NCBI GenBank assembly: GCA_021208605.1
Contig: JAJOJK010000001.1
Coordinates: 5,257-69,256 of the forward strand
DNA from: Candidatus Woesebacteria bacterium
Lineage (GTDB): Bacteria > Patescibacteriota > Microgenomatia > UBA1400 > UBA1396
Direction of reading: 5' to 3'
Length of the DNA stretch: 64,000 nt
Shown: positions 44,469 to 58,629 of the stretch, in pieces
Layout of the letters: each line of letters starts with the position of its first letter
Position numbering within the stretch: position 1 is the first letter of the stretch
The notes under the pieces: model-generated
Databases searched by the model: none
What the model was told of the DNA's origin: nothing
The model's input: the letters and a program-made list of their open reading frames with translations, nothing else
Program-made: the position numbers and the translations under genes

Positions 44469-44470
44469 AG

Positions 44471-44898: not shown

Positions 44899-45042
44899 TA
44901 TGTATATGTAAACGATCTCTCGCCTCTCCCCTTCAGTTTCGCCGCGTTGGCGAGGGGGAGATTTGAGAGCTATATTATAACAAAAATACTATAGGATGTC
45001 TATATAACAGAAGCAAACCCAAATATTCCGCAAATTGCTCTC

Positions 45043-45070
45043 TTGACACAGCCCATAACATATGTATAAT
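45043..45070 (+). promoter_or_regulatory. Consensus sigma70-type promoter (TTGACA-17-TATAAT)
   Basis: ctcTTGACAcagcccataacatatgTATAATact; perfect -35 and -10 hexamers with a 16-17 nt spacer. Confidence 0.55.
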
Positions 45071-45076
45071 ACTTAA

Positions 45077-45147
45077 TTACATCAGCAGGTTGATCCCTCA
45101 TCGGAGATACGTGCTGATACAAAAGAAGCCCGGGAGGGCTTTTTTTG
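45077..45147 (+). ncRNA. Candidate small RNA (about 70 nt) between the consensus promoter and an intrinsic terminator
   Basis: Internal hairpin atcagcag...gtgctgat, then terminator aagcccgggagggcttttttt; no ORF; 80 nt upstream of tRNA-Arg. Confidence 0.3.
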
Positions 45148-45231
45148 TACCCCAAGATATGGCGCTTCCATCACACTCATATAAGGACGGTACTGCTCTC
45201 CCCGATTTCCCTGCTACAATACCCCTATCTG

Positions 45232-45305
45232 GCGCCAGTAGCTCAGCTGGATAGAGCAACTGCCTTCTAAGCAGTAGGTCGCGGGTTCGAGTCCCTCCTG
45301 GCGCA
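45232..45305 (+). tRNA. tRNA-Arg(TCT), CCA not encoded; 3' half overlapped by the recombinase gene end
   Basis: Acceptor GCGCCAG/CTGGCGC, D-arm GCTCAGCTGGATAGAGC, anticodon arm ACTGC-CTTCTAA-GCAGT, T-loop TTCGAGT. Confidence 0.85.
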
Positions 45306-47075
45306 CAAATTAGCATCCTTAACCCCGAACCTAAAGAAAAGCTCTTGTAGAATATCTTTAGGTAATCGGAAATGGATGTCGAGTTTATACGGGAGCATTT
45401 GCTCCTGTTTCTTTTTCCCAGAAATAATATCTGTTTCGTTTACCGGTCTGGACCGAACAACCACCTTTTCTATAAGGCTTACGAGCAGATCATGAGTAAA
45501 TCGTGGGTTACTCTTGAGATCAAGAAGTGAGTCTTGGTACGTCTGCTGGAAGTAGGTAAGGGTGTCAGCATATTGCTTGGAAAGTGTAATCTTGCCAATC
45601 TTTACTTCAATTTCATCTGCTTCTTTCTGCCAAGATTCGGCTTTCTGGTCTTCCTCAGCGAGTTGTGTTTTAAGTGCTTCTATAGAAGGAATGATGCCGG
45701 CCACATGTTGTTCTTGGAGCAGTTTCTTGCGCACAGGAGTTCCCTTTATAAGGTTGAGTAAGTATGCTTGTTTTTCCTGCAAATGCTTCTTTTCCAACAG
45801 GTTTGATTTCAGTGTGTTTTGATAGTTTATGACCGGTTCGGGGTTATCAAGAAGGAGTCGGACTTGTTCAAGTACGATATTCTCAACTTGGTCTCCAGGG
45901 AGTGGAATGACTGAGCAGGTATGGGAAAACTTCTTTGGATTCCTCCTGCCACACTTATACATGTAACTGATTGTCTGACCTTCATTCGTTGTTACTCTTC
46001 TGGATTCACCAGACCAGGATGGCATCGCATCCGCGCGCCCGCTGACTAAACAGTCTTCGCATTTAAGTAACCCGGAAAGCAGATAAATATGCTGCTCTTT
46101 CTTTTCCCTTGCAACGTTAGTACTAGTCGTTTTGAGTTTTTCAAGCCGTTTTTGAGCCATCTCAAAAACCACGTTTTCGATAATAGTGGGGTATGAGTAC
46201 TCTGTACGTTTCCATTCGGACTTAGGAAGCTTAGTTGCTCCGTTGTATTTGTGATAGTAATGAACGCCAATATACATCTCATTTGAGAGAATTTGACGTA
46301 CTTGATGGGCACGCCAGAAGTAAGGATCGTTCTTTTTCTTCGTCCGACCTTTTCGTTTTTGGTGGAACACGGCGGATGCTGAGGGGGATAGGATTTGTAG
46401 TCGCTTAAGTTCGTCTGCAATGAGCTGTGGTGTTTTATTTTGTGTTATTAACAGATCAAATATCATACTGACGATCTTGGCTTCTGGCTCAAAAACTTTT
46501 GCGGTCTTATCTGGATTCTTGATATAGCCAAAGGTAGCATTTTCCCCCATGATTATTCCTTTATTTACTGCTTGGCGAATACCATCTTGTGTGCGTTGCT
46601 TCATGGTTTCAATCTCAAGCTCGGCGATGACTCCAATGATGCTCAATATGGCGCGACCAAAAGGAGTGCCAGTATCTATGCTTTCATTTGCCGAAAGGAG
46701 CTTTACGCCATGTTCATTGAAAAGGTCAATCACATCCATGAGGACTTTGAGTCTTCGAGCGAACCGGTCTATACGATAAACAGCAACAACATCAAAAGGT
46801 TTTTTTCCATCTGGTGACTGAATAAGATCCTCTATTAACCGAGAAAAACCTGGCCGACTGCCAATTTCAGTGGTTCCACTGACTCCATCATCAACATACA
46901 CGTATTGAGGTCCTGCCAAAACGGCACGAGGAGTACCATCTTCGAGATGACCTTTCGATTTGACAAGGGACTCTACGGCCTCTTTTTGCAGATCAAGGCC
47001 ATATTTATCCACCTGATCATCAGTGGAGACTCTGAGATAGATAGCAACTCGAAGTTGCGTAGTTACGTCTGTCAT
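45267..47075 (-). CDS. Large serine recombinase (integrase); C-terminal 13 codons and the stop lie antisense inside tRNA-Arg(TCT)
   Basis: Resolvase catalytic N-domain AIYLRVSTDDQ...RIDRFAR, recombinase domain, zinc-ribbon cysteines (CEDC...CGRR...HTC) and a coiled-coil; the TAG stop sits in the tRNA anticodon loop. Confidence 0.85.
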   Translation of the reverse strand: MTDVTTQLRVAIYLRVSTDDQVDKYGLDLQKEAVESLVKSKGHLEDGTPRAVLAGPQYVYVDDGVSGTTEIGSRPGFSRLIEDLIQSPDGKKPFDVVAVYRIDRFARRLKVLMDVIDLFNEHGVKLLSANESIDTGTPFGRAILSIIGVIAELEIETMKQRTQDGIRQAVNKGIIMGENATFGYIKNPDKTAKVFEPEAKIVSMIFDLLITQNKTPQLIADELKRLQILSPSASAVFHQKRKGRTKKKNDPYFWRAHQVRQILSNEMYIGVHYYHKYNGATKLPKSEWKRTEYSYPTIIENVVFEMAQKRLEKLKTTSTNVAREKKEQHIYLLSGLLKCEDCLVSGRADAMPSWSGESRRVTTNEGQTISYMYKCGRRNPKKFSHTCSVIPLPGDQVENIVLEQVRLLLDNPEPVINYQNTLKSNLLEKKHLQEKQAYLLNLIKGTPVRKKLLQEQHVAGIIPSIEALKTQLAEEDQKAESWQKEADEIEVKIGKITLSKQYADTLTYFQQTYQDSLLDLKSNPRFTHDLLVSLIEKVVVRSRPVNETDIISGKKKQEQMLPYKLDIHFRLPKDILQELFFRFGVKDANLCARRDSNPRPTA

Positions 47076-47184
47076 GAATGCTGTGTTCTTGTATAGGAAC
47101 AGCAGACCCCGAAGTAGCTGTTTCAATGAATGATACACCATACTAGTGGGGGTTTTTACAGTAAGAGATATATAATAAGCTTTA

Positions 47185-47814
47185 ATGAACTTTTACTCAC
47201 AAATCCCTTTTTGGGAAAACAAACTCAGGCAGCGAGAGCTAAATTCGTTTAAAGAATCAATTGAACATTATTTCCAAGATCTTGAGTATGATGCCCTAGG
47301 TGACCCCATGGTTACTGAAAAAGGGATGAAAGTACGATCCTCGATAAATAAAAAAATAGACTACATAGGCGACGTTATTCGGTTGGCTGGAATAAATACG
47401 AAGATTACGTACTATCCTCCTCCAGCTATCGGTGGCCCGGTTACAACGCTCGATGTTATTGAAAACACCTTTAACCTTCGATCATTTAGCATTACTCCCA
47501 TAGAAATCATTGATCAACTTGATAAGGCACTCGGTATCTACGAGGCAGATGAAAAAAGGGCATTTATTCGTACCTTTAATCCTTTCTTTTGGATGGGAAG
47601 ACTATTTGTTTGGCTATCGTCACTTCCATTTATGTTCTTACACCATGCTGGCTTTGATGTGGTGAAGATACAAACTACTATATGGGGAAAGCTTTTGAAA
47701 CTTTTCTTTGATTGTGTGGCGTTCGCTGCGGGAGTCCTCACCATTTTCCAGGTGCTTGGATATGTTGGTGTTTTGCAATCACTAAAAGCAATTATTGATT
47801 CAATGTTGCCGTAA
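47185..47814 (+). CDS. Hypothetical protein with a C-terminal 2-TM region
   Basis: 209 aa, AT-rich, first gene after the integrase. Confidence 0.4.
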   Translation: MNFYSQIPFWENKLRQRELNSFKESIEHYFQDLEYDALGDPMVTEKGMKVRSSINKKIDYIGDVIRLAGINTKITYYPPPAIGGPVTTLDVIENTFNLRSFSITPIEIIDQLDKALGIYEADEKRAFIRTFNPFFWMGRLFVWLSSLPFMFLHHAGFDVVKIQTTIWGKLLKLFFDCVAFAAGVLTIFQVLGYVGVLQSLKAIIDSMLP

Positions 47815-47816
47815 AA

Positions 47817-48254
47817 TCACGGATTCTCTCGCAGTTTTCCATAGAGTAGGTGTAGTGTTGTCTCATCATCTGTTTCACTTGAGAAAATACCAACAGAGAG
47901 CTCCTTTACAGAGCTTGTTCCAGAAATAGGATAAACGCGATAGTTCTCAAGAGAAAACTGGCTTACGTGATACTGTTTTCGCAGTTCATCTGAATCGGCC
48001 GATTTAATAAGGCCAGCGAGCTTGTGAGCTGCTTTTACCGGGTCAGATTCATTTATAGCCTGAACAAGTGATTCACTCTTGGAAGGTTTGCCACTCACTT
48101 TCTTGCCATGAATGGTAACTTTAGCAGTAGGATCCATTTTTATGGCAATAAGGTCAGTAAACCCATCATTAATCTCAGTCTCTTCACTCGGTGAGTTTTC
48201 ATCTTCTTCATCGAGCAGATACTGTTTGTAGTTTTTGAGATCGATGACTGACAT
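47817..48254 (-). CDS. Hypothetical acidic protein
   Basis: 145 aa, AT-rich island gene, no recognisable motif. Confidence 0.4.
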   Translation of the reverse strand: MSVIDLKNYKQYLLDEEDENSPSEETEINDGFTDLIAIKMDPTAKVTIHGKKVSGKPSKSESLVQAINESDPVKAAHKLAGLIKSADSDELRKQYHVSQFSLENYRVYPISGTSSVKELSVGIFSSETDDETTLHLLYGKLRENP

Positions 48255-48335
48255 GGATTAACAGTATCCTACCAGAGTTTCAGAAGCATTCTAAACGAGG
48301 TATTATTAAATGATACATACGCAAGAAGGCTTTTT

Positions 48336-48716
48336 ATGGCAAAAGTTGGTAGACCTACTAAATACAAACGCAAATATTGTCAGGTAGCCTCGGATTTTCT
48401 TTCTCAAGGCTATTCCAAGGAGGCTTTAGCAGGAGAATTAGGGATTTCCAGGCAGTGCCTGTATGAATGGCTAGAGAAACATCAGGAATTTGGTGACACG
48501 GTGGCGCAGGCGGAAGCCAAGGCACAATGCATCTGGGAAAAGTACGGCCAAGATGCGGTTCAAGGGAAAATAAAAGGATTCAATACCTCGGTGTGGATGT
48601 TTGTGATGAAGAATCGCTTCGGATGGAAAGAGCGCGAAAGCATTACTTTTGATCAGGAGCCGATTACTGGAGTATCAATACTTGCTCCCGTGGGATCTAC
48701 TATTTCGGAAAGTTGA
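48336..48716 (+). CDS. HTH DNA-binding protein resembling a phage terminase small subunit (GRPTKY family)
   Basis: MAKVGRPTKY... and GISRQCLYEWLEKHQEF helix-turn-helix, as in prophage TerS-like DNA-packaging proteins. Confidence 0.45.
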   Translation: MAKVGRPTKYKRKYCQVASDFLSQGYSKEALAGELGISRQCLYEWLEKHQEFGDTVAQAEAKAQCIWEKYGQDAVQGKIKGFNTSVWMFVMKNRFGWKERESITFDQEPITGVSILAPVGSTISES

Positions 48717-49234
48717 ATACCAGCTTTCTCAAAAGCATCAAAATAAGCTTGATAATCAGATTCACTGTATGTGGTCATAACAATCTGCTTGATTCGCGCC
48801 GCTTTCTTCTCTTGATAGTCAGCGAAAACATCAGCTACAACAGATGCCGCATCATCTATTGGAAAGGCATGAGTTCCGGTAGATATGGAAGGAAAAGCAA
48901 TGGAGTCACACTCAAGCTTCTCAGCGAGTGCCAGTGATGCTTTATAGCACTGAGCTAGCAAAAGAGACTCTCTCCCGTTTTCACGACCATACAACGGCCC
49001 AACGGTATGAATAACATGGCTAGCTGGTAGGCAATAGCCTTTTGTAGGTACGACCTCACCGACTTCGCAGTGACCAATAATACGGCATTCTCTTTCAAGT
49101 TCTTTCCCAGCGGCTCGATGGATAGCGCCACAAACTCCACTTCCGGCTAAAAGCGACCGATTAGCAGAGTTCACAACAACATCAACTTGAAGAGTTGCTA
49201 TATCGCCTAAAAAGACACTTATTTTTGGTTTCAT
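48653..49234 (-). CDS. Macro domain protein (ADP-ribose/O-acetyl-ADP-ribose processing, YmdB-like)
   Basis: VVNSANRSLLAGSGVCGAIHRAAG and SIAFPSISTGTHAFP macro-domain signatures. Confidence 0.8.
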   Translation of the reverse strand: MKPKISVFLGDIATLQVDVVVNSANRSLLAGSGVCGAIHRAAGKELERECRIIGHCEVGEVVPTKGYCLPASHVIHTVGPLYGRENGRESLLLAQCYKASLALAEKLECDSIAFPSISTGTHAFPIDDAASVVADVFADYQEKKAARIKQIVMTTYSESDYQAYFDAFEKAGIQLSEIVDPTGASIDTPVIGS

Positions 49235-49293
49235 GGCTGACGAGGATATTTTTCCTTGTGGTCCATTAATACCATATTGTGAACAGATAGGAC

Positions 49294-49467
49294 TTAGCGT
49301 TTTTTCTTTCTCAATCCGAGCATTCGAGCTAAAATGGCGAAAACACCGATTAATCCGATAAGCTTTCCTACATTATAGGTAAAGGATGGACCAAACATTG
49401 TTCCCAAGCCGATTACTATGAAGATTAAGATGAACGCGCCTGCTACTCGAAAAAGCAACCTCTTCAT
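49294..49467 (-). CDS. Small hydrophobic protein (2 TM)
   Basis: MKRLLFRVAGAFILIFIVIGLG...; ATGA-coupled to a second 56-aa hydrophobic ORF (about 49464-49634, below the track threshold). Confidence 0.3.
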   Translation of the reverse strand: MKRLLFRVAGAFILIFIVIGLGTMFGPSFTYNVGKLIGLIGVFAILARMLGLRKKKR

Positions 49468-49723
49468 TTCTCTCCTCCGGATCGGCAAACATCAAAAAGT
49501 ATGAAAGTTGTGCATTCCCCTCTTATCTGCCTGGAAAACCAACGATACGTCCTTGTAATGTGGTTACTAAGCATGAACACGAAGATCAAAATGGCGATTA
49601 TTGGAGCAATGTACTGAATGATTTTTTCCGACATATGATTTGTTTGTCCTATGCATAAATAATAGCATAAACTCTCAATACTAGTGCGTAATAATTTAAT
49701 GCGGATTCATATGCAATATCTTC

Positions 49724-49984
49724 ATGAAAATAAAAAATATTCAAAAGGTCGAAGAACGCAGAAAAGAAAAGCAAGCTTTTGCCAAGAAACTTGGCGACCA
49801 TCTTCGAAAGGTTCGTAACAAGGTAGGAAAAAGCCAGGAAGACCTCTCAATGGATGCTGGCTACTACCGTACGTATGTTGGCAAGATCGAGCAAGGTCAC
49901 TATTCTCCAAGTGCTCACACCATTTGGCGACTAGCTCATACTCTGGGAATGAGCTTGGATGAGTTTTTTGAGGGGTTTAAGTAA
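49724..49984 (+). CDS. XRE-family (Cro/C1-type) helix-turn-helix transcriptional regulator
   Basis: LRKVRNKVGKSQEDLSMDAGYYRTYVGKIEQG...LGMSLDEFF is a classic HTH_XRE. Confidence 0.75.
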   Translation: MKIKNIQKVEERRKEKQAFAKKLGDHLRKVRNKVGKSQEDLSMDAGYYRTYVGKIEQGHYSPSAHTIWRLAHTLGMSLDEFFEGFK

Positions 49985-50074
49985 AACCTTTATTTTTTGA
50001 TTTAAAGCAATCAGTAGCATTCACTTACATAGTGGTAAAATTAGCGTGTTTTATAGATAGACTAGCTAGGTTAT

Positions 50075-51268
50075 ATGAAGCTTAAGACAATTGATAAAAA
50101 AGATTTGCGCGAAATCATCCAGAGTGGGCACATTAATTTTTTAATTGGTTCTGGTTGCTCTTCTGGCTATCTCCCAATGCTTGGCGATATTGAAAAAAGA
50201 ATGAATGATCCTGCTACTGAGGAGGATTCAAAGAAACAGTATCTTGCCATTATTAATAAATCAAAAGCGATTCTGGATGAAAATAGAGAAACAGATCAAT
50301 CTGAAAAAGCAAACCTACTGAAAACAAAAAAAGCGTATGGTGATTTCCTAAATTTCTGGTTAGAAACACTATCCAGGAGAGCATTACCAATCGTAAACAA
50401 GCAAATCAACGTTTTTACAACAAACTTTGATATGTTTATTGAAGATGCTTGTGAATCATCAAGTATCCCTTACAACGATGGATTTTCTGGACAAATAAAA
50501 CCTGAATTTGATCCAGCAAACTTTAATCGAATCCAAAAGTATAAAACTCTCCAGTTCGATAACATTTCTGATTTCCCTCTATTTAACATAGTAAAATTGC
50601 ATGGCTCTCTTTCATGGGAAGCGACGACAGATAAAACAATTGTATATTCCCAAGGGGATCACATTAAAGACAATCTGGGTACATTGTCAGGTTCTGCTTT
50701 TCTCGATGAGTATAAAAGCCAAGTCGCTGTAATTAATCCGAATGCGGAGAAACATTATGAAACTGTTCTGGATATTAGACATGCAGCACTCTTAAGAAAA
50801 TTCACATTAGAACTAGAAAAAGAAAACAGTATTTTATTTGTATTTGGAACCTCATTGGGTGATGGTCACATTAAGCACTTACTTGATACCGTAATGAGAA
50901 CGAATCCTACGTTGATAGTACTTTACTTTTCATTTTCTCCATATCAAACAGATAGGCTTGGCGAGAAAAAATATCCCAACCTATATGTTGTATACCCAGA
51001 CTTAAAGATAGAATCGTTTGATGCAGTGTTCGGCAGTGAGAGCAGGCATCAATGGGAGTCGTTCGTGGTGGATCCAAATGCTGAGAAAATTGAACCTGTA
51101 GATGAGATCAAGACCAGATTACATGAAATTTCAGAGGACACAGATGAAGGTATCGAATTAAAAAATAAATTGAAGTCCATTTTCGAATTCACTTTTGAGA
51201 AGAATACAGAATTTTTAATGGAGATCTTTCAAAAAAAGGTAGTTGATAATGAGCAACGAGAAATTTGA
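50075..51268 (+). CDS. SIR2-like (SIR2_2/DUF4020-type) NAD-utilising effector of a SIR2-HerA defense pair
   Basis: Gly-rich loop FLIGSGCSSGYLP, VFTTNFDMFIE (TTNYD-like) and KLHGSLSW (HGS) motifs. Confidence 0.65.
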   Translation: MKLKTIDKKDLREIIQSGHINFLIGSGCSSGYLPMLGDIEKRMNDPATEEDSKKQYLAIINKSKAILDENRETDQSEKANLLKTKKAYGDFLNFWLETLSRRALPIVNKQINVFTTNFDMFIEDACESSSIPYNDGFSGQIKPEFDPANFNRIQKYKTLQFDNISDFPLFNIVKLHGSLSWEATTDKTIVYSQGDHIKDNLGTLSGSAFLDEYKSQVAVINPNAEKHYETVLDIRHAALLRKFTLELEKENSILFVFGTSLGDGHIKHLLDTVMRTNPTLIVLYFSFSPYQTDRLGEKKYPNLYVVYPDLKIESFDAVFGSESRHQWESFVVDPNAEKIEPVDEIKTRLHEISEDTDEGIELKNKLKSIFEFTFEKNTEFLMEIFQKKVVDNEQREI

Positions 51269-53135
51269 TTTACAAGATGATCTTGCAAGCAATTCTGTTT
51301 TCACAATTGGGAATGTTTTCAGTGTTAGAGGAAAAGATATTGTTGTCAGAGTAAACAAAGATAAAAACCTCCCTCACCTCTTTTTTAAGGGTAAAACAGT
51401 AAAGAACGTTTCTGTAGGCCTGTCCAACTATGTAAAGATTCTTAAAGGATTTACAGAAATAATTTGCAAAGTTGAGGGCGAGTATTTAGAAGAAGACAAG
51501 TTTCAAACTAAAAAAACGTATGCCAATGAAAAGCAGAAAATTGAAAGGTTTCTCAACGTATCTGTCTTCGGTTTTTATGATAACGAAGGACAATTTCAGC
51601 ATGGTATAAAAGAAATGCCGTTAATCGGCAGTGAGTGTCGAATATTATCTAGAGAAGAGTTTGAGAGACTACATGAGTTATCAAATGATGATCTGTCAAT
51701 CCCTTTGGGAACACTTATTGACGAAGAAACTCAGGAAATATCTGTCTCGGTAAATAATCTTTTTGCAGGACATATAGGCATATTCGGAAATACTGGATCT
51801 GGAAAGTCAAATACTCTTGCCAAAATGTTTACCGAGTTATTCGCTTTGCAATCAAACAATAGTAATTTTAACTCCAAATCAAAGTTTATTTTTATAGACT
51901 TTAATGGCGAATACTCAGGTGATTTAACGTTATCAACTCCTAAAGAAATTTACAAACTCAATACTGAAATAGAACTGGAACACACCCGGTCAGAGAATAA
52001 AATTCCACTAACTGAGAAAAGCTTTATTGACCTTGAATTACTCTCAATATTGTCTAATGCTTCTGAAAAAACTCAAAAACCTTTTTTGAGTAGAGCTGTT
52101 AATTTGTATAAAAAAATAATAATAAAAGAAGAAGAAGATCCACTTGAATACTTTAAGAACATTCTGAAAATTAACGCTCTGCGAATCTTAAAGTTGAAAA
52201 ATAAGGACTTAGCATTCTTATGTCTAGACAGATATAAGCAAATATTAAAAATTCAAAATGATGATACGGAATTTACAATACCCGAATGGCATAACACTCA
52301 TTCCTATTTCAAATGTGGTGGTGAAGCCGACTATGACAATATATCTGATGAACAATATAAATCACAACCTATTTATATTAGAGCGGATGACTACACATTC
52401 CCTGAGAATATAATTGAAAAATTCTTGGATATAGCTAGAGTGCAATTATTATATGATTTACTTGATTACAGAGTTCAGAATGAACATGTTTACCCATGTA
52501 TAACTAAGCTTGAAAGTATTAAAAAGAGTATTAAAAAAGTAATTGATACTTCTGTAAATCATAATAGAGATATTTTCCGCCAGCATAACTTAGCAGTTAT
52601 CGATCTTAAATTCTCGAATAGAGAAATCAAAAAGGCAATCCCATTAGTTGTTTTGAAATGGTTGTATGAGAATCATAAAAACACATATGATGGCAACTCA
52701 TCGCTGCATATAGTTATTGATGAAGCTCATAATATCTTATCCGAGAACTCGGTCCGAGAATCAGAAACCTGGAAGGATTACAGACTTGAAACATTTGAAG
52801 AGATTATTAAAGAGGGTAGGAAGTTTGGAGTTTTCTTGACAATTGCCAGCCAAAGACCTTCTGATATTTCTCCTACAATAATTTCTCAGCTACATAATTA
52901 CTTTATTCACAAGTTAATGAATGAAAATGACTTAAGAGCTATTAATAAAGCTGTTAGTTATTTAGATAAGTTGTCATTTGACTCAATATCAAATCTTTCC
53001 AAAGGATGTTGTTTTATTGCTGGCCAACTCACACAATTTCCTCTCTCAGTAAAAGTGAAGTTGCTAGATAAACCTTTACAACCCAAAAGCGAAACGATTA
53101 ATCTGGATAAGCTTTGGAGGGGTAGAGGTAATTAA
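51249..53135 (+). CDS. HerA-like (DUF87) P-loop ATPase/helicase partner of SIR2
   Basis: Walker A GNTGSGKSNT, Walker B HIVIDEAHNIL, TIASQRPSDIS (HerA family); the ATG overlaps the SIR2 gene by 20 nt. Confidence 0.75.
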   Translation: MSNEKFDLQDDLASNSVFTIGNVFSVRGKDIVVRVNKDKNLPHLFFKGKTVKNVSVGLSNYVKILKGFTEIICKVEGEYLEEDKFQTKKTYANEKQKIERFLNVSVFGFYDNEGQFQHGIKEMPLIGSECRILSREEFERLHELSNDDLSIPLGTLIDEETQEISVSVNNLFAGHIGIFGNTGSGKSNTLAKMFTELFALQSNNSNFNSKSKFIFIDFNGEYSGDLTLSTPKEIYKLNTEIELEHTRSENKIPLTEKSFIDLELLSILSNASEKTQKPFLSRAVNLYKKIIIKEEEDPLEYFKNILKINALRILKLKNKDLAFLCLDRYKQILKIQNDDTEFTIPEWHNTHSYFKCGGEADYDNISDEQYKSQPIYIRADDYTFPENIIEKFLDIARVQLLYDLLDYRVQNEHVYPCITKLESIKKSIKKVIDTSVNHNRDIFRQHNLAVIDLKFSNREIKKAIPLVVLKWLYENHKNTYDGNSSLHIVIDEAHNILSENSVRESETWKDYRLETFEEIIKEGRKFGVFLTIASQRPSDISPTIISQLHNYFIHKLMNENDLRAINKAVSYLDKLSFDSISNLSKGCCFIAGQLTQFPLSVKVKLLDKPLQPKSETINLDKLWRGRGN

Positions 53136-54031
53136 TGTTGTTCTGCAATCACTTGCAAGTATCTTTCAAGTAATTGCCTATTCAGAATCATAAGGTTAAT
53201 ATCATATTCCATCAGAGCCTGTTTGTTTTTCCACAGAGCGATAAACCCGCCAGCGTCCTCAAAACCAGCAAGTTTACCTGTATGGATGTATTGTGATCTA
53301 ACTGGATGATAAAGTTTTTTCATCAAAGAAACCCACGTTTGAGAATAGGGCTCATCTATAAGATCATTTATGAGTTTTGCCATTTCTTGAACATGACTTG
53401 TGCTGTGAGAGAGTGCAGAGACTTCCTCGCATTCCGGGCATATAAGCTTTACTTCTTTTTCATGTACACTATGTGGTTCATCAGCCAACTGGTTTATTGA
53501 TGCCAAGTGTAGTGTCATGTACAAGGTGTATCGATACTGTGGATTAGGTAGATGAGCAATTTCTCGTGCATGGCAATAAGTTTGCAATGCTTGCCAAAAT
53601 TTTGTTTGTTTTTCAGGTGGTAGTTTATGAATGAGTTGAACATATGCAGCGATTCTGAGTGGCAAATCCCAATCCAACTGATTACCAAAGCGAATTTCTG
53701 GATTATAGAATTTTGAGGCTAGGTTACTTTCAATGAACTGATCAATTTCTTCATCTACTGTTTCCCAACGACACATAGGGATATTTGTATATGATAGACA
53801 AATAAGGTTTTTTATTCGTTCAACACTCTTATAGGAAGTTTCTTCATTTAGTTCACTTTTTATATCAAGGATTATCCCTAGTTCACCATCGTGTTCCATG
53901 CCCAAATGAGATCGACCCTTATAAGCAAAAATTTTCCCACCCTGAATAATAGAGTCGGCTAATGCTGGGAAAGTATATGATGGTTCTTTTGAGTTATAAA
54001 CGAACCCAGGAATGTATGTAAAAAGCAACAT
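53132..54031 (-). CDS. Hypothetical protein convergent on HerA (stop codons overlap)
   Basis: 299 aa, AT-rich, no recognisable motif. Confidence 0.45.
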   Translation of the reverse strand: MLLFTYIPGFVYNSKEPSYTFPALADSIIQGGKIFAYKGRSHLGMEHDGELGIILDIKSELNEETSYKSVERIKNLICLSYTNIPMCRWETVDEEIDQFIESNLASKFYNPEIRFGNQLDWDLPLRIAAYVQLIHKLPPEKQTKFWQALQTYCHAREIAHLPNPQYRYTLYMTLHLASINQLADEPHSVHEKEVKLICPECEEVSALSHSTSHVQEMAKLINDLIDEPYSQTWVSLMKKLYHPVRSQYIHTGKLAGFEDAGGFIALWKNKQALMEYDINLMILNRQLLERYLQVIAEQH

Positions 54032-54072
54032 TATGTTGATTATACTTTCTTGCTATGAAATAGTAATTCCAT

Positions 54073-54543
54073 ATGCCAGAACTTACTCGCAACGAACTTG
54101 CTATCGAAGATCTGCGCCGGCGTGCTAAGGATAATAAGGCCCAAAATGCTGCTCAATTCGCAACCCTGTCAGAGTCATATCTTGATAAAACAAGAAATGT
54201 TCTTTTTCTCATCAGTTTTGCTATCCTGACGTACTTAGGCGCAATTCAAAAAACTTTAACTACTTGTGAAACTGTATTTTTACTTGCTTCAATAATTTTT
54301 GGCATAGTTTCATATTTGGGGTCATATCGCTATGCTTGGGCGCTAAGCCGTTACTACTCTGATCTTGAACGCAATTTAGCAAGAGCGTTTCCGAGTCAGG
54401 AAGAATATAACCAGATGCTGTTGAATGAGTCGAGTATTAGTACGCAACATTCAAGAAGACATGTTCCTCAATTTTTTGCACTTGGATTTCTTCTTGCTCA
54501 GGCTCTAGTACTTTTCTCTACACTTTTGGGAATTTTTATCTAA
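54073..54543 (+). CDS. Hypothetical 3-TM membrane protein
   Basis: 156 aa; hydrophobic helices LFLISFAILTYLGAI, VFLLASIIFGIVSYLG and a C-terminal helix. Confidence 0.4.
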   Translation: MPELTRNELAIEDLRRRAKDNKAQNAAQFATLSESYLDKTRNVLFLISFAILTYLGAIQKTLTTCETVFLLASIIFGIVSYLGSYRYAWALSRYYSDLERNLARAFPSQEEYNQMLLNESSISTQHSRRHVPQFFALGFLLAQALVLFSTLLGIFI

Positions 54544-54545
54544 TG

Positions 54546-55469
54546 TCAGTTCACCCGATTTGGAAATTTACTTTTTGTAGCCTGAATTATAGCCTCAACC
54601 CACTGCTCAGCATTCTTTCTCATAGAGTCTTCTGTACACCATGCCAGCTCTGGACCAGCCCAGACGTTACCTTTGTGATCGAGCATGCTAGGTTTACTCT
54701 CCTCAAAACCATATCCGAACAAACCGTCGTTAGCCACCATTTTTAAGAGCAGGTCATGGTTGTATACATTATGGATAATGCTGGCAAAAATAGCAGTTTT
54801 CTTCATTGATCCCAGCATTTCGTCCGTAATTAACCCGTGCGTTTCTTCATTTTGAGCTACGGTTGGAATGATGACATCCGAGGTTTTCATTAATTGTGAG
54901 AGTTCTACACGCTCAAATCGGTCGTCAGTAGTGTTCTTTGACCAGTACTGAACTTTCATACCTAATCCAGCCATATTTTCTGCTACTGAACGCCCAATGT
55001 TGCCTAAGCCAATAATACCTGCTGTTTTCCCTCGAAGTTCAATACCCTGGTGTTTGATGTAGTCCTGTTTCCACTCGTCCTTAATGATTACGGGCAGTCT
55101 TCGTGCTAACGCAAAAACCATCATTGTGGCCCACTCTGCCACTGCAATTTTAGAAAACCCTCTCAGGTTAATGACAGGAATACTAAGAGTCTTAGCGAAA
55201 TTCACATCGAGCCAACTAAATGAGGTAGTTTGCAAGACGATTGCCTTGAGGTGTGGAATGCGCTCAATGACATCATTAGGGACCTTCCAGTCACAGAAAT
55301 CTGGATCAATGGCCAAGATACGATCTTCATCGCCGGTAAATAGTCCCTCTACTGAGTCAAAGCCATTCACTTCTGAGTGGAAAATAACATCACCAGCTTG
55401 TTTAAGACTATCAATCTGATCTGGAGAAAAGAGTGCATTGATATTTGGGCTGATGAGAAAGATTTTCAT
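54546..55469 (-). CDS. D-isomer-specific 2-hydroxyacid dehydrogenase family (NAD-binding)
   Basis: Rossmann motif GIIGLGNIGRSVA and the catalytic R/E/H layout of D-2-hydroxyacid dehydrogenases. Confidence 0.75.
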   Translation of the reverse strand: MKIFLISPNINALFSPDQIDSLKQAGDVIFHSEVNGFDSVEGLFTGDEDRILAIDPDFCDWKVPNDVIERIPHLKAIVLQTTSFSWLDVNFAKTLSIPVINLRGFSKIAVAEWATMMVFALARRLPVIIKDEWKQDYIKHQGIELRGKTAGIIGLGNIGRSVAENMAGLGMKVQYWSKNTTDDRFERVELSQLMKTSDVIIPTVAQNEETHGLITDEMLGSMKKTAIFASIIHNVYNHDLLLKMVANDGLFGYGFEESKPSMLDHKGNVWAGPELAWCTEDSMRKNAEQWVEAIIQATKSKFPNRVN

Positions 55470-55618
55470 ATGGCCATTGTACCTCACGATACCCACCTAT
55501 TCTTATACCTCTTGATCAATCTATCTAGTTCTGGCACCTGCACTATCAACGGTATGCCCGCCACTTTACCTACTTCGGGGTCATGCACGCTGACCCACAA
55601 GTCTGTTACAATACGACT

Positions 55619-55846
55619 ATGTCTACAGAATTGTCAGTCGAATCCCTTTTTGAGCAAATGGTGCAAGGCCTTGAAATGACTCCTGAGCAACACACAAGAA
55701 TATTCCAAGCTATTCAGCAAGGTTTATTAGCTGAGCCACAAACCGATGGCCAGCTAGAAACTGATATTCGTCTTGTGCAGTGGATGGATCAAGATTCAGA
55801 CTCAGGTTCAGATTCTGAACCTCGTTTTGTTCGCAAGCTGCGTTAA
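55619..55846 (+). CDS. Small hypothetical acidic protein
   Basis: Internal ATG (MSTELSVESL); 75 aa. Confidence 0.3.
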   Translation: MSTELSVESLFEQMVQGLEMTPEQHTRIFQAIQQGLLAEPQTDGQLETDIRLVQWMDQDSDSGSDSEPRFVRKLR

Positions 55847-55931
55847 AGCATTTGCAGCCACTTTTCCAATTTTCTTGATGGGTATGTTACGGTCTACTGT
55901 ATGAAACAAGGCTACGTTGCATAGAAGTATT

Positions 55932-56318
55932 TTACTCGTTTTGGAGCTCGTGGGAATCAAGTGTGACAGAATACTTCTGAACAATTATTTCCCAATCTGA
56001 TCGCAATGTACTTAGGTACTCTTCATACTGGTCACTCGGCTTGACCCAAGTGATATCCAAAAGTGTGTGCAGGAGAAAAATGATGTCACTGATTCTATTA
56101 ATATATGGTTTGAAATGAAATTTTTTAGTCTTTGGGTGTATTAAACTCTGATGGATAAGTGCACTTATAGTTTGCTCATCAATTTTTCCTTCAAAGAAAT
56201 CTCGGCACATGTTACAAGATAATTGAATAAAATCCTGAAGAGTTTCTTTTTGGGGCATAAACTCGTTTATATAAGCAGAAAACATTTTTTGTTTATTTCC
56301 TTCTCGAAATATGGACAT
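55932..56318 (-). CDS. Hypothetical protein
   Basis: 128 aa, AT-rich, last low-GC gene of the island core. Confidence 0.4.
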   Translation of the reverse strand: MSIFREGNKQKMFSAYINEFMPQKETLQDFIQLSCNMCRDFFEGKIDEQTISALIHQSLIHPKTKKFHFKPYINRISDIIFLLHTLLDITWVKPSDQYEEYLSTLRSDWEIIVQKYSVTLDSHELQNE

Positions 56319-56397
56319 CCTAAATTTTACACTATCTCTTTCTTGAGTCTCCCCGCAAACCCTGCTAGAGTGATTTCTCTACCGAAGAAAGGAAACT

Positions 56398-56973
56398 ATG
56401 GCAGACGACATGACCAATGACAGCACAAAAATGCTCCCAGCAGACGACACGCAAGAACTTGAGGCCGGCGAAGCCGTAGAAAGCCTGGAAGCCGGTGATG
56501 ATACCGATGCATTACCAGATGGCTACGAAATTGTCGCTACCGACGAAGCGACTGTCGAAGACAACGTTGAGCAAGCCGAACAATTCGGCGAAGCCCTCAC
56601 TTCTCTCCAGAACATTATTCAACGCTACTCTGATCAATATGATCAAGTGAACTCTCGCTACAAAGATCTGCGCGAGATGATGAAAAATATGTTTGACAAT
56701 GACGCTGAGTTGCAAGAGCTGTCCGAACAAGCCAAGACAGCGCAGCAAGACGCCAAGATGCGTAAACAACGCATTAAGGAGTCGCCAGAGTCAGTCGAGC
56801 TCCAGATGAAGATGAAAGAGACCAAAGAAGAAATTAACGAGATTCAAGAGACCTTGAATAACCACCTTTTGCGCTACTACCAGATGACTGGTTCGCAAGT
56901 GATCGAAGAGCCAGATGGCACGGAGCGTGAATTCAAGATTTCTGCCCGTCTCAAGTCAAAAAAGGCATCGTAA
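56398..56973 (+). CDS. Hypothetical acidic coiled-coil protein
   Basis: 191 aa, normal GC, Asp/Glu-rich N-terminus. Confidence 0.45.
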   Translation: MADDMTNDSTKMLPADDTQELEAGEAVESLEAGDDTDALPDGYEIVATDEATVEDNVEQAEQFGEALTSLQNIIQRYSDQYDQVNSRYKDLREMMKNMFDNDAELQELSEQAKTAQQDAKMRKQRIKESPESVELQMKMKETKEEINEIQETLNNHLLRYYQMTGSQVIEEPDGTEREFKISARLKSKKAS

Positions 56974-57023
56974 CACCAGCTTTTTGTTACATTTTTGTTT
57001 GCATTGATTGGTATAATAGAAGT

Positions 57024-58051
57024 ATGAGGGCAGGTGTCCGCATCCTACTGGTTACCCTATTTATACTCTTCGGATTTTTGAGGAGTGCTTCGGCTGCGGC
57101 GGCAACTGACTACGGTATGCACGTTCTGCGTCCAGAAGAGATAGAGACAATTGCCGCGCAGACAACCGAGTTGCGTCAAGAAAGCTCGGCGCCGCTCTAT
57201 GTAACGCTGCCATTCAGTTTAGACGATACTAAAGATTTAGATCGTTGGCGCACCGCCTTTCGGGTGGCTAAAGAGAATAACATCGTGCCTCTGGTGCGCC
57301 TGGTGACTCGTTTTGACACCGAGGCAAATGCCTGGGCAGTGCCGATCAGTACGAAATCGTGCAACTAACTAGTGCCTTAAACCAACTAGAGTGGCCACAG
57401 ACTGAGCGCCACGTCATTCTCTTTAATGAACCAAACCACGCGGCTGAATGGGGTGGCACTACTGATCCCGAAAGCTATGCTAGCATTTCATACTTTGCCG
57501 CCCAGTGGCTGAATACCGAGTCTGAAAACTACGTCGTTTTGCCGGCAGCTGCAGACTTAGCAGCTCCTAATGGACCAGTTACTATGGAAGCGTTCACTTT
57601 TTGGAAGCGAGCTTTGGCGGCAGAGCCTGACCTGCTCTACCAACTTGATGCCTGGAACTCGCATAGCTATCCAAATCCAGGTTTTGTGGCTGCTCCAACT
57701 CGTACAGGTCAAAACAGCTTGCGCGGTTTTGAACATGAGTTAGCTTTTTTGGACCAATACCAGATTAAAGAGTGGAAAGTCTATATCACCGAAACTGGCT
57801 GGCGCCAGACACCAACCAATGCGCGCAGCATGGCTTACTATTATGAATACGCGCATGAGAATATCTGGAACCACTCTCAAGTTGTCGCTGTGACACCATT
57901 CCTCTGGCAAGGTGCTCCAGGGCCATTTGCCGAGTTTAGTTTGCAAAACGAGGCGCAGAGTTTGACCTACCAAGGCGAAGCTCTCTTTGATTTGATCGCG
58001 CAGTCCGCAGCCGTATTGCTAACTGATAGCGCGGCGGCCTCTGGACGTTAG
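57024..58051 (+). pseudogene. Clan GH-A glycoside hydrolase-like gene (signal peptide; NEP acid/base and ITETGW nucleophile motifs) split into two frames near 57359
   Basis: Track ORFs 57024-57368 (frame 0, signal peptide) and 57359-58051 (frame 2, carrying VILFNEPNH and YITETGW) overlap by 10 nt. Confidence 0.5.
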
Positions 58052-58088
58052 TTTTGAAGCCTGTAATTCTGTAGAATAGAATGAAACT

Positions 58089-58534
58089 ATGCAAAAGAGA
58101 TGTTCTTCTTGCAAACTTCTTCTGAACGAAGAAGAATTTACGTGGAAGTATAAAAATGTAAAGAGATCCTTGTATTGTCGCACGTGTTCTCGGAGCTATG
58201 TCAGAGAACACTACAAAAGAATCGAGCCTATTATCTCAATAAAGCTCATCAGCAAAATAAAATAAAAAGAGATAAAATACAGCTACTTATAGGCAAGTAT
58301 CTTTCATCTCATCCCTGTGTTGATTGCGGCGAAACAGATATTCTTGTTTTGGAGTTTGATCATAGAGAAAGAAGCAGTAAAATAGGAGCAATTAGCGACT
58401 TAGTGAGAAAGGGTCTCCCTTTCTCAGCAATTCGCCAAGAGATGAGTAAGTGCGAAGTCCGCTGTGCAAACTGCCACCGCAGGAAAACAGCAGTGGAAAA
58501 CAAGAGTTGGAAACTCAATTTTTCGCGCCCGTAG
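58089..58534 (+). pseudogene. HNH homing-endonuclease-like protein (N-terminal Cys4 finger + HNH), frameshifted in an A4 run (about 58215)
   Basis: 59-aa ORF (CSSCK...CRTC) in one frame and 58175-58534 in another with CVDCGE...EFDH...CANCH; one extra A would join them (…EHYKKNRAYY…). Confidence 0.55.
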
Positions 58535-58599
58535 CTCAATGGATAGAGCACCTGTCTTCGGAACAGGGTTTGTTGGGGGTTCGAGTCCCTCCGGGCGCA
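58525..58599 (+). tRNA. tRNA-Arg(TCG), CCA not encoded
   Basis: Acceptor GCGCCCG/CGGGCGC, D-arm GCTCAATGGATAGAGC, anticodon arm CCTGT-CTTCGGA-ACAGG, T-loop TTCGAGT. Confidence 0.85.
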
Positions 58600-58629
58600 C
58601 ATAAAAAAGCATTTTGCTATACTCTTCTT

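What the first reader, a model, noticed from the sequence alone, without database searches (positions are those of the whole stretch)
45232..58599. AT-rich integrative island at tRNA-Arg(TCT) with a serine integrase reading antisense into the tRNA
The large serine recombinase ORF ends with ...CARRDSNPRPTA, which is the antisense translation of the tRNA-Arg 3' half, and its TAG stop lies in the anticodon loop. The attachment site and the integrase 3' end therefore overlap. GC content then falls for about 9 kb across the cargo genes: orphan genes, a TerS-like HTH protein, a macro domain protein, an XRE regulator, SIR2-HerA, and a dehydrogenase. A second, distinct tRNA-Arg(TCG) with a nearly identical T-arm/acceptor 3' end (GGGTTCGAGTCCCTCC[T/G]GGCGCA) and an adjacent HNH endonuclease sit at the far side. 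Integrase + TerS-like + repressor + defense cargo is the architecture of small phage satellites or defense islands. That would be a notable find in this kind of genome.
Basis: partly seen in the sequence, partly recalled or inferred. Interest (0 to 1): 0.75.

Follow-up and report, generated by a model that had tools for sequence, protein, structure and literature searches.

The report
tRNA-targeting serine-integrase defence island
A 10.3-kb mobile island carrying an anti-phage system sits at the end of a tRNA-Arg gene in a Woesebacteria (CPR) genome, inserted by a large serine integrase from a big CPR-wide family that always targets tRNA 3' ends and whose own gene loses its conserved tail on integration; I found no published description of either feature for this enzyme class.

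Summary
A syntenic relative (L121) lacks it, and flank homology stops at those two points. The second tRNA-Arg(TCG), the HNH-like ORF and the genes at 56.4-58.0 kb are host DNA.

The integrase has the large serine recombinase domains. In 59 of 61 related CPR loci with readable downstream sequence, its 3' end abuts the 3' end of a convergent tRNA (Lys, Gly, Glu, Val, Ala, Leu, Arg) in one fixed register. Site symmetry places the crossover at the discriminator base.

The far end carries an inverted copy of the int 3' half-site. Joining the two ends rebuilds a ~50-bp quasi-palindromic attP. It also extends the int ORF by a conserved tail of about 20-100 aa (37 here). Between close pairs, tail substitutions fall 42/27/92 by codon position. 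Integration therefore truncates the integrase, as in Mx8, but with serine chemistry.

Cargo is SIR2-HerA, a macro domain protein, a TerS-like HTH protein, an XRE regulator and a dehydrogenase. I found no replication or virion genes, so the satellite reading is unsupported. No excised form was found. What the tail does remains inference.

The parts
45232..45305 (+). tRNA-Arg(TCT). It is host-derived in full. Its T-loop and 3' acceptor strand (about 45281-45304) form the B half-site of attB.
   Evidence: ARAGORN and Rfam tRNA at 68.2 bits. It is identical, including the C50-U64 T-stem mismatch, in island-free relative L121.
45304..45308 (.). attL core CACAA. The inferred central dinucleotide is AC at 45305-45306, i.e. 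the discriminator base plus the next base.
   Evidence: Homology to L121 ends at 45306. The same 5-bp block occurs at attR. The symmetry centre of the reconstructed attP falls here.
45306..45331 (-). P' half-site, formed by the last codons of int (...FGVKDANL). The distal motif is GTTCGGGGT.
   Evidence: GTTCGGGG-N14-TTG sits in a fixed register before the tRNA end in 58 loci. This stretch is 96% identical to L004.
45267..47075 (-). Large serine integrase in its integrated (truncated) form. It has 590 conserved aa plus 12 aa encoded by antisense tRNA. The ORF is open up to 47141.
   Evidence: Pfam Resolvase 2.9e-32, Recombinase 1.9e-16, Zn_ribbon_recom 2.4e-5. phrog_95 integrase 1e-90. 395 homologues, and S39 plus four Cys are invariant.
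47081..47114 (-). Half-site-like motif CTTCGGGGTCTGCTGTTCC... lying 6-40 nt upstream of the int start. It is a possible Int operator.
   Evidence: Conserved in L004. Similar motifs that covary with each element's own P' motif occur upstream of int in many loci. The function is inferred.
47185..47814 (+). 209-aa backbone protein with a hydrophobic C-terminus. Function unknown.
   Evidence: 66% identical to the L004 homologue at the same position. No Pfam, PADLOC or PHROG hit.
47817..48254 (-). 145-aa backbone protein. Function unknown.
   Evidence: 56% identical to the L004 homologue. No family hit.
48336..48716 (+). 126-aa HTH protein resembling the N-terminal part of terminase small subunits. 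It is a candidate DNA-binding accessory or directionality factor.
   Evidence: Pfam GP3_package 9.6e-8 and HTH_7. phrog_309 at 6.9e-23. Homologues lie next to int in L017 and L029.
48653..49234 (-). Macro domain protein.
   Evidence: Pfam Macro 9.7e-39.
49724..49984 (+). XRE/HTH_3 regulator, part of the element backbone.
   Evidence: Pfam HTH_3 1.4e-13. 94% identical to L004's regulator.
50075..53135 (+). SIR2-HerA two-gene defence system. SIR2 is at 50075-51268 and HerA at 51243-53135.
   Evidence: PADLOC SIR2 PDLC04080 1.6e-49 and HerA PDLC04097 1.7e-174. Pfam SIR2_2 and DUF87.
53132..54543 (.). Two orphan cargo genes: 299 aa (-) and 156 aa (+).
   Evidence: ORFs. No family hits.
54546..55469 (-). 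D-2-hydroxyacid dehydrogenase family cargo gene.
   Evidence: Pfam 2-Hacid_dh_C 1.8e-25. Called as 307 aa in Logan contigs.
55484..55597 (-). Detached 3' tail of int (WVSVHDPEVGKVAGIPLIVQVPELDRLIKRYKNRWVS*). It is in frame with int only after excision.
   Evidence: Translation. 74% aa identity to L004, with homology starting at the centre and ending at the stop codon. Third-codon-position excess of substitutions. The tail is family-wide.
55573..55597 (+). P half-site, an inverted copy of P' (CTTCGGGGTCATGCACGCTGACCCA). The attR centre AC is at 55597-55598.
   Evidence: 19 of 23 positions match the L004 P arm. Chimeric-query score 20/28 against a control of 16. Homology to L121 resumes here.
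55598..55621 (+). B' host half-site (CAAGTCTGTTACAATACGACTATG), directly upstream of a 74-aa host gene that starts at 55619.
   Evidence: 89% identical to L121 from this point on.

Best explanation
The window holds a 10,292-bp integrative island (45,306-55,597) in a Candidatus Woesebacteria chromosome. A large serine recombinase (LSR) inserted it immediately after the discriminator base of tRNA-Arg(TCT).

Shown:
- The island is absent from a collinear relative, and its ends coincide with integrase half-sites.
- The integrase belongs to a large family found almost only in Patescibacteria MAGs. Its 3' end always abuts a convergent tRNA 3' end in one register.
- Joining the island ends rebuilds a ~50-bp imperfect-palindrome attP: CTTCGGGGTCATGCACGCTGACC-CACAA-ATTAGCATCCTTAACCCCGAA.
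- The same junction fuses int in frame to a conserved tail that is under purifying selection.

Inferred:
- The enzyme reads the T-loop plus 3' acceptor strand as its B half-site. The distal TTCG motif lies 20 nt from the centre in the tRNA and 24 nt in both P arms. This offset resembles the one known between attB and attP half-sites of LSRs.
- The enzyme tolerates almost any B' sequence and exchanges strands at discriminator/+1, so the tRNA stays intact.
- Integration replaces the last 37 codons of int with 12 antisense-tRNA codons. Full-length Int can therefore be made only from the excised circle.
- The integrated copy encodes only the truncated form, yet tails stay under selection across diverged elements. 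Excision must therefore still occur.

My preferred mechanism is that the tail sets directionality or activity. Full-length Int would integrate. Tail-less Int, perhaps helped by the small TerS-like HTH protein or the 145/209-aa backbone proteins, would either be quiescent or be the excision-competent form.

The cargo (SIR2-HerA, macro domain protein, dehydrogenase) benefits the host. The route of transfer between cells is unknown.
For: Boundaries:
- L121 (DHH protein 81% identical) is collinear on both flanks. Homology stops at 45306 and resumes at about 55590-55598.
- GC is 0.388 in the island against 0.48 outside.

Enzyme:
- Pfam and PHROG domain hits.
- The catalytic Ser and four Cys are invariant across the alignment.

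Family behaviour:
- 395 homologues, many with C-termini that are antisense tRNA (W.R.DSNP, GNRTPD and similar).
- 56 of 63 genome loci show a convergent tRNA at the int stop.
- Three more loci end inside a tRNA, giving 59 of 61 with readable downstream sequence.
- The register is fixed, and 13 tRNA species are used.

Sister element:
- The L004 integrase is 84% identical and sits at tRNA-Lys(ctt). It has the same backbone genes but different cargo.

Far-end half-site and tail:
- Found.
- Alignments show homology starting at the centre and ending at the tail stop codon.
- In 29 loci with a P arm above control, the int-frame read-through has a median of 39 aa, against 9 and 8 aa in the other two frames.
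- The conserved tail motif appears in 18 of those 29, against 0 and 1 in the other frames.
- Substitutions by codon position in six close pairs are 42/27/92.
- Independent database ORFs carry the same tail behind non-homologous N-termini.

Accretion relics:
- Relics of int 3' ends lie at the far ends of the L004 and L020 islands. This implies repeated insertion next to the tRNA.
Against: - No excised circle or free attP form was found. The attP pattern gave only chance hits in viral and JGI metagenome contigs.
- No full-length Int+tail protein appeared in the protein database.
- L121 is not a clean empty site. It carries a 176-nt insert and a 19-nt second copy of the tRNA 3' end. The simple attB is therefore reconstructed, not observed.
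- Logan contig breaks fall in mid-tRNA. They reflect shared tRNA k-mers, not excision.
- The window element's P arm mimics the tRNA-Lys acceptor rather than the tRNA-Arg acceptor. This insertion may be at a secondary site.
- The crossover dinucleotide rests on symmetry only.
- The tail alone did not fold with confidence (pLDDT 50), so nothing structural supports any role for it.
Confidence: 0.85

Rival explanations
1. The island is a phage satellite (PICI- or P4-like). It would use its TerS-like protein to hijack a helper phage's packaging, with the XRE protein as its repressor.
For: The 126-aa protein matches terminase small subunit families: phrog_309 at 6.9e-23 and Pfam GP3_package at 9.6e-8. 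Int, an XRE regulator and small size resemble satellites. Two sister islands also carry the TerS-like gene next to int.
Against: No primase or replication, capsid, portal or packaging-remodelling genes appear here. None appear among 135 ORFs of 27 sister islands, which instead carry methylases, AAA_15/21 ATPases, nucleases, kinases and dehydrogenases. Only 3 family loci occur in IMG/VR. The TerS-like match covers only an HTH-containing part of the profile. The gene is absent from the closest sister element, L004.
Confidence: 0.08
2. The island is a fixed, no longer mobile remnant. The int read-through and the 'tail' would be incidental, with the tail being a separate small gene or a regulatory DNA element.
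For: No excised form or clean empty site was found. Gene callers do call the tails as small ORFs. All seven Logan contigs spanning either island end and both NCBI MAG loci fetched (L007, L008) from this population carry the island.
Against: Int, both half-sites and the tail ORF are all intact. The tail lies in the int frame across the reconstructed junction in diverged elements, while the other two frames are closed. The called small ORFs have non-homologous N-termini, so their starts look spurious. An 84%-identical integrase sits at a different tRNA with different cargo, which indicates recent mobility. Accretion relics also point to repeated insertion.
Confidence: 0.08
3. Integration follows the classical tRNA-island pattern. 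The crossover would lie inside the tRNA (T-loop or anticodon loop), and the tRNA 3' half would be supplied by the element.
For: The tRNA has a C-U mismatch in the T-stem that could suggest a hybrid gene. L121 shows a 19-nt duplicate of the tRNA 3' end.
Against: The same mismatch is present in the island-free relative. No displaced tRNA 3' fragment exists at the far end. The 3' acceptor strands next to the window and L004 integrases differ and each pairs with its own tRNA 5' strand. The far-end arm is element-derived and conserved between elements sitting at different tRNAs.
Confidence: 0.03
4. The island extends to tRNA-Arg(TCG) at 58.6 kb. The two similar tRNA 3' ends would act as its att repeats.
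For: There is a 23-nt near-identical 3' end and a GC dip at 55.6-56.4 kb.
Against: The region 55,598-58,047 and the tRNA-Arg(tcg) itself are collinear with L121, which lacks the island. The 191-aa gene has 55%-identical homologues on the host side of other loci. Isoacceptor tRNAs of one genome normally share their 3' ends.
Confidence: 0.01

Closest known systems
Large serine integrases of phages and ICEs (phiC31, Bxb1, A118/LI, TP901-1, SPbeta SprA)
   Same: They share the Resolvase + Recombinase + zinc-ribbon architecture. They also share a ~50-bp attP with imperfect inverted half-sites, very short attP/attB identity, and a different spacing of the distal motif in P-type versus B-type half-sites.
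   Different: Targets here are tRNA gene 3' ends, whereas known LSRs use protein-coding or intergenic sites. Islander and TIGER authors state that serine integrases were not known to target tRNA genes, with 14/297 unverified predictions (PMC4383910, PMC7192596). attP lies inside the int 3' coding region. The family is almost confined to Patescibacteria. The elements are only 3.6-11.4 kb and are not phages or ICEs.
Myxophage Mx8 IntP/IntX and SSV-type integrases (tyrosine recombinases)
   Same: attP lies within the integrase ORF, so integration changes (Mx8) or splits (SSV) the gene. The targets are tRNA genes. In Mx8 the altered C-terminus changes integrase activity (PMC6070905, PMC4383910, PMC7253208).
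   Different: The catalytic family and mechanism are unrelated. Here only a 20-100-aa tail is removed and all known LSR domains remain.
phiRSM-type small serine recombinase integrases
   Same: A serine-chemistry integrase acting as a site-specific integrase of a small element (cited in PMC7192596). That it targets tRNA genes is my recollection, not checked here.
   Different: These are resolvase-sized S-Core proteins without Recombinase or zinc-ribbon domains, carried by filamentous phages of proteobacteria.
tRNA-linked genomic/defence islands with tyrosine integrases (P4-like int)
   Same: They have a tRNA 3' end location, an int gene at the tRNA-proximal edge, AT-rich variable cargo rich in defence genes (here SIR2-HerA), and tandem accretion at the tRNA.
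   Different: There is no 15-100-bp direct repeat of the tRNA. The tRNA is not split. The recombinase family is different.
Phage satellites (PICI, cfPICI, P4, PLE)
   Same: They combine an integrase, a small regulator and a TerS-like protein in a ~10-kb element.
   Different: No replication module, no capsid or packaging-redirection genes and no identifiable helper. Sister islands lack the TerS-like gene.

Membership tests
Large serine recombinase (serine integrase) | N-terminal resolvase catalytic domain with a conserved nucleophilic serine | tested here: met
   PF00239 at 2.9e-32. R37-V38-S39 is invariant in the 40-sequence alignment.
Large serine recombinase (serine integrase) | Recombinase domain followed by a zinc-ribbon domain | tested here: met
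   PF07508 at 1.9e-16. PF13408 scores 25.1 bits, just under its 25.3-bit cutoff. C361, C364, C397 and C409 are invariant.
Large serine recombinase (serine integrase) | Coiled-coil insertion in the zinc-ribbon domain that controls directionality | not tested
   About 110 residues lie between the zinc ribbon and the C-terminal strands and were not analysed. PDB sequence search matched only the N-terminal domains.
Large serine recombinase (serine integrase) | About 40-50-bp att sites with imperfect inverted half-sites around a 2-bp crossover, and minimal attP/attB identity | tested here: met
   The reconstructed attP is quasi-palindromic. attL and attR share only CACAA exactly. The same holds in 29 loci. 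The 2-bp cut itself is not testable here.
Large serine recombinase (serine integrase) | Demonstrated attP x attB recombination | not testable with these tools
   Needs an in vivo or in vitro assay, or junction reads.
Integrated mobile genomic island | Present/absent polymorphism with precise ends in collinear relatives | tested here: met
   L121 lacks the 10.3 kb and flank homology breaks at 45306 and about 55597. Caveat: L121 has its own 176-nt insert at the site.
Integrated mobile genomic island | Excised circular form or regenerated empty site in the same population | tested here: not met
   All seven Logan contigs spanning either island end and both NCBI MAG loci fetched (L007, L008) carry the island. 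attP pattern scans of viral and metagenome contigs gave only chance hits. Raw reads could not be searched.
SIR2-HerA defence system | Adjacent SIR2-domain and HerA-type ATPase genes matching the system's models | tested here: met
   PADLOC SIR2 at 1.6e-49 and HerA at 1.7e-174. The genes overlap by 26 nt. Anti-phage activity is not testable.
Phage satellite (PICI/P4-like) | Own replication module (primase/helicase or rep-ori) | tested here: not met
   No such Pfam, PHROG or PADLOC hit in any island ORF or in 135 ORFs of sister islands.
Phage satellite (PICI/P4-like) | Packaging-hijack genes (TerS, capsid-size redirection, head-tail adaptors) | tested here: inconclusive
   Only a 126-aa TerS-like HTH protein is present. 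No other morphogenesis genes were found.
Mx8/SSV-like 'integrase ORF spans attP' arrangement | Integration changes the integrase coding sequence | tested here: met
   The int frame continues across the reconstructed junction into a conserved tail under purifying selection. The membership concerns the arrangement only, because the recombinase family differs.

The most novel reading that the evidence does not exclude
The detachable C-terminal tail is a built-in directionality switch for a serine integrase. Full-length Int, expressible only from the excised circle, would catalyse attP x tRNA integration. The tail-less Int expressed from the chromosome would be the excision-competent form. If so, the element would need no separate recombination directionality factor. 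The family would also offer compact, programmable recombinases aimed at universally conserved tRNA 3' ends, including a first site-specific integration tool for CPR bacteria.
Probability: 0.2. Interest if true: 0.9.

Novelty: new variant of a known kind. Interest (0 to 1): 0.72.

Why it matters
Serine integrases are the main tools for large-DNA insertion in synthetic biology. They have been described as not using tRNA genes, the favourite target of tyrosine integrases.

This family has hundreds of members with a fixed geometry. It cuts at the discriminator base, reads the T-loop and acceptor strand as one half-site, and tolerates nearly any sequence on the other side.

- **Mobile-element biology.** It would change the picture of how the two integrase classes differ. 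It may explain a share of the unexplained tRNA-adjacent islands in Patescibacteria.
- **Control of directionality.** The int ORF crossing attP gives a natural experiment on how a C-terminal tail affects LSR directionality.
- **Tools.** It gives candidate enzymes and landing sites for genetic work in CPR bacteria.
- **CPR defence.** It shows that streamlined CPR genomes trade defence systems such as SIR2-HerA on small dedicated vehicles.

Tried and rejected
- **Direct repeat of the tRNA 3' end.** Only other tRNAs matched. The search was rejected once the serine-type core became clear.
- **Six-frame search of the window for a second FGVK-type int end.** None found.
- **Logan contig ends inside the tRNA as a sign of excision.** Rejected. 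The break lies 25 nt or more from the crossover and fits shared tRNA k-mers.
- **Exact-protein look-up of the 87-aa flank gene for an empty site.** All contigs carry the island.
- **IMG/VR scan with the integrase alignment.** Three loci only. Two abut tRNAs. L080 is followed by a P-arm-like sequence and remains unresolved.
- **attP pattern scans of viral and JGI metagenome contigs.** Only chance hits in GC-rich DNA.
- **Protein database search with a tail profile.** Only short ORFs from integrated copies were returned, and no full-length Int+tail. The first attempt failed on the 40-aa minimum.
- **AlphaFold of the long-type tail alone.** pLDDT was 50, which is uninformative, so I ran no fold search.
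- **PDB sequence search.** Only N-terminal domains matched, so it says nothing about the C-terminus.
- **Literature searches for a prior description.** None found in the library. One search failed on term length.
- **Rfam on the window and L121.** tRNAs only.
- **Hybrid-tRNA explanation for the T-stem mismatch.** Rejected, because the mismatch is also in L121.

Full report
**1. Check of the observation**

ARAGORN and Rfam place tRNA-Arg(tct) at 45232-45306 (+) and tRNA-Arg(tcg) at 58525-58600 (+). A 624-aa ORF lies at 45267-47141 (-). Its likely start is the ATG at 47075. It carries Resolvase (2.9e-32), Recombinase (1.9e-16) and Zn_ribbon_recom domains.

The last 12 codons of this ORF (CARRDSNPRPTA) are antisense to the tRNA, and the TAG stop lies in the anticodon loop. 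GC falls from 0.48 to 0.388 across the cargo.

The cargo calls hold:
- Macro domain protein, XRE/HTH_3 regulator and 2-hydroxyacid dehydrogenase.
- SIR2-HerA, with PADLOC scores of 1.6e-49 and 1.7e-174.
- A 126-aa TerS-like HTH protein, phrog_309 at 6.9e-23.

The host is a Candidatus Woesebacteria bacterium, going by the source names of the flanking proteins.

**2. The antisense read-through is a family signature, not a local oddity**

The integrase has 395 database homologues at E<=1e-10. The few that carry a source name are labelled as CPR/Patescibacteria proteins. Most are about 590 aa and end ...FGVKxxNL. Many others run on with W(A/T)R(R/W)DSNP..., GNRTPD... or GGIRTHD..., which are antisense translations of tRNA 3' ends.

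A scan of one genome per species returned 65 loci, nearly all from Patescibacteria MAGs.
- In 56 of 63 loci a convergent tRNA starts at the int stop.
- Three more contigs end inside such a tRNA.
- This gives 59 of 61 loci with readable downstream sequence.

The register is fixed: GTTCGGGG-N14-TTG, or TGG where CCA is encoded, then the antisense discriminator and acceptor strand. Thirteen tRNA species are used. They are mainly Val, Lys, Gly and Glu, and the window is the only Arg(tct) case.

**3. Finding the other end**

The closest relative outside this population is P0002 (84% identical) on Logan contigs L004-L006. It sits in the same geometry but at tRNA-Lys(ctt). It shares the 209-aa, 145-aa and HTH_3 backbone genes at 66%, 56% and 94% identity. 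Its cargo differs: AAA_21 + DUF4276, SRA-HNH and an ADP-ribosylglycohydrolase.

A copy of its int 3' end lies 9.2 kb away, directly followed by an inverted copy of it. The window holds the homologue of that inverted arm at 55573-55597 (CTTCGGGGTCATGCACGCTGACCCA), matching L004 at 19 of 23 positions.

Alignment of the window with L004 shows that homology starts exactly at TTGTGGG and stops about 105 nt further in. At the tRNA side, the last 115 nt of int are 96% identical between the two.

Joining the island ends gives attP = CTTCGGGGTCATGCACGCTGACC-CACAA-ATTAGCATCCTTAACCCCGAA. This is an imperfect palindrome. Its centre falls on AC, which corresponds to the discriminator plus the next base (45305-45306 and 55597-55598).

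The distal TTCG motif lies 24 nt from the centre in both P arms and 20 nt in the tRNA arm. From established knowledge of LSR-DNA complexes, the zinc-ribbon motif sits further out in attP than in attB half-sites. The 4-nt offset fits that, although the structural model predicts about 5.

**4. Independent confirmation of the boundaries**

A relative with an 81%-identical DHH protein (L121, GCA_964447905.1) is collinear on both sides and lacks the island.
- Left homology runs through the tRNA to ...CTGGCGCAC (window 45306).
- Right homology resumes at CAC[A/C]AGTCTGTTACAATACGAC (window 55597 onward).
- blastn finds nothing for 45307-55589.

They are the 74-aa gene (true start 55619), the 191-aa gene, the secreted 342-aa protein and tRNA-Arg(tcg). 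The 191-aa gene also has 55%-identical homologues on the host side of two other loci.

L121 is not a clean empty site. A 176-nt insert and a 19-nt second copy of the tRNA 3' end lie between the flanks.

**5. The int ORF crosses attP**

Read through the reconstructed junction, int continues as ...ANL-WVSVHDPEVGKVAGIPLIVQVPELDRLIKRYKNRWVS*. L004 gives a 74%-identical tail.

I built a half-site model from 3 nt, 9 nt of antisense acceptor and 16 nt of the inverted int distal arm. It finds a far-end P arm above control in 29 of 58 loci. The resulting island sizes are 3.6-11.4 kb.

In those 29 loci:
- The int-frame read-through has a median of 39 aa, against 9 and 8 aa in the other two frames.
- A shared motif (..PE[LV]......L.h....[IL]D..I.RIG) appears in 18, against 0 and 1 in the other frames.

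Six ungapped close pairs show 42/27/92 substitutions at codon positions 1/2/3.

A profile search of the protein database with the tails returned only short ORFs. They carry the same tail behind non-homologous N-termini, which marks their starts as spurious calls in integrated copies.

The tail is therefore coding sequence kept under selection in the int frame. Integration detaches it.

**6. Mechanism: what is shown and what is inferred**

Shown:
- Target choice and geometry.
- The boundaries of the island.
- The structure of attP.
- The detachable tail.
- Variable cargo on a conserved backbone.
- Tandem accretion. The L004 and L020 islands are flanked at their far ends by relics of another element's int 3' end. 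In L020 this is a 48-codon fragment that is 90% identical to the window's Int, plus decayed tails.

Inferred:
- Strand exchange occurs at discriminator/+1.
- The tRNA half-site is the main specificity determinant, because the B' arms are unrelated between loci and even a P' relic is accepted.
- The tail modulates activity or direction.

Only the truncated gene exists in the chromosome, yet tails remain selected across diverged elements. Excision must therefore occur, either by the truncated enzyme or in trans. I favour a state-dependent switch, but nothing here tests it.

A half-site-like motif 6-40 nt upstream of the int start (47081-47114) is conserved in L004. It covaries with each element's own arm motif in other loci, which hints at autoregulation.

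**7. What it is not**

Neither this island nor 135 ORFs from 27 sister islands contain replication, virion or conjugation genes. The sister cargo is methylases, AAA_15/21 ATPases (HEC-01/AbiL/OLD-like), nucleases, kinases and dehydrogenases. Only three family loci occur in IMG/VR. The satellite reading is therefore unsupported. The TerS-like HTH protein may equally be a DNA-binding accessory factor.

The crossover does not lie inside the tRNA. The acceptor strands are host-specific, and the T-stem C-U mismatch is also present in L121.

**8. Missing evidence**

No excised form or regenerated attB was found in contigs or in proteins. Contig breaks in the Logan assemblies are mid-tRNA and do not bear on excision. 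The tail alone did not fold with confidence.

**9. Comparison with what is known**

The domain architecture and att logic are those of large serine integrases. The target class is not. Hudson et al. 2015 state that only tyrosine integrases are known to target tDNAs (PMC4383910). Mageeney et al. 2020 found 14/297 S-Int islands at t(m)RNA genes and called this unreported and in need of proof (PMC7192596).

An ORF spanning attP is known for the tyrosine integrases of Mx8 and SSV. I found no serine example in the library.

My classification is a new variant of a known kind. It is a tRNA-3'-end-specific LSR family, seen almost only in CPR MAGs, with an Mx8-like C-terminal remodelling. In this window it carries a SIR2-HerA defence island.

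Noticed in passing
window 44312-44470 (-), window 63141-63300 (+), L121 12235-12410: A shared unit of about 160 nt follows three tRNA genes. It has a terminator hairpin, then a conserved core (...CGAGCATACCGAA...AATGCGAG...TAGTGCATGCGGAGTGAGC...GCGAACGCAGTCGT). In two copies it ends with a 17-19-nt second copy of the adjacent tRNA's 3' end. There is no Rfam hit. It could be a miniature tRNA-targeting insertion, a decayed island scar or an sRNA.
   Followed up: partly
window 58048-58522: The HNH-like ORF (58175-58534) lies in a ~475-nt stretch absent from relative L121, where the upstream gene ends 17 nt before tRNA-Arg(tcg). It looks like a free-standing insertion. It has no Pfam hit and overlaps the tRNA start by 10 nt.
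   Followed up: partly
window 57024-58051: This gene is split by a frameshift in the window (114 + 230 aa). In Logan contigs of the same population (L011-L013) it is a single 342-aa gene. An assembly error or a strain variant is likely.
   Followed up: no
window 47081-47114 (-): A half-site-like motif (CTTCGGGGTCTGCTGTTCCTATACAAGAACACAG) lies just upstream of the int start. It is conserved in L004. In other loci it is echoed by AAGTTCxGGGTA...CTxTATTTA motifs that covary with each element's own arm. It is a possible Int operator.
   Followed up: partly
window 63066-63140: tRNA-Lys(ctt) is unoccupied. Its antisense acceptor (TGGGTCAGG) matches the island's P-arm proximal part better than tRNA-Arg(tct) does, and the closest sister elements sit at tRNA-Lys. 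The Arg insertion may be a secondary-site event.
   Followed up: partly
L004 2553-2579; L020 4128-5629: Relics of other elements' int 3' ends and tails lie directly outside the far ends of these islands. One is a 48-codon fragment 90% identical to the window's Int. This indicates successive insertions next to the tRNA followed by decay of the older element.
   Followed up: partly
L070 11758-11800; L080 9955-10084: In these two family loci int is followed by a P-arm-like sequence rather than a tRNA, with a TGA stop at the centre. They could be tandem arrays, degenerate attP sites or free forms. This was not resolved.
   Followed up: partly
window 45281-45297 (tRNA-Arg(tct) T-arm): The T-stem has a C50-U64 mismatch, which is also present in relative L121, so it is native. 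The sister isoacceptor Arg(tcg) has G-U at the same pair with the same 3' strand.
   Followed up: yes
window 45042-45150: A TTGACA/TATAAT promoter, a hairpin and a terminator-like stem lie upstream of tRNA-Arg(tct). They are about 90% conserved in L121. This may be a small leader or sRNA.
   Followed up: no
L007 (GCA_021208155.1), L008 (GCA_021208925.1): NCBI MAGs of the same population carry the island. In both, no integrase gene is called. L007 also has several split genes (ArgRS, SIR2, HerA), and CorA is split in L008. This probably reflects indel errors in those assemblies.
   Followed up: no
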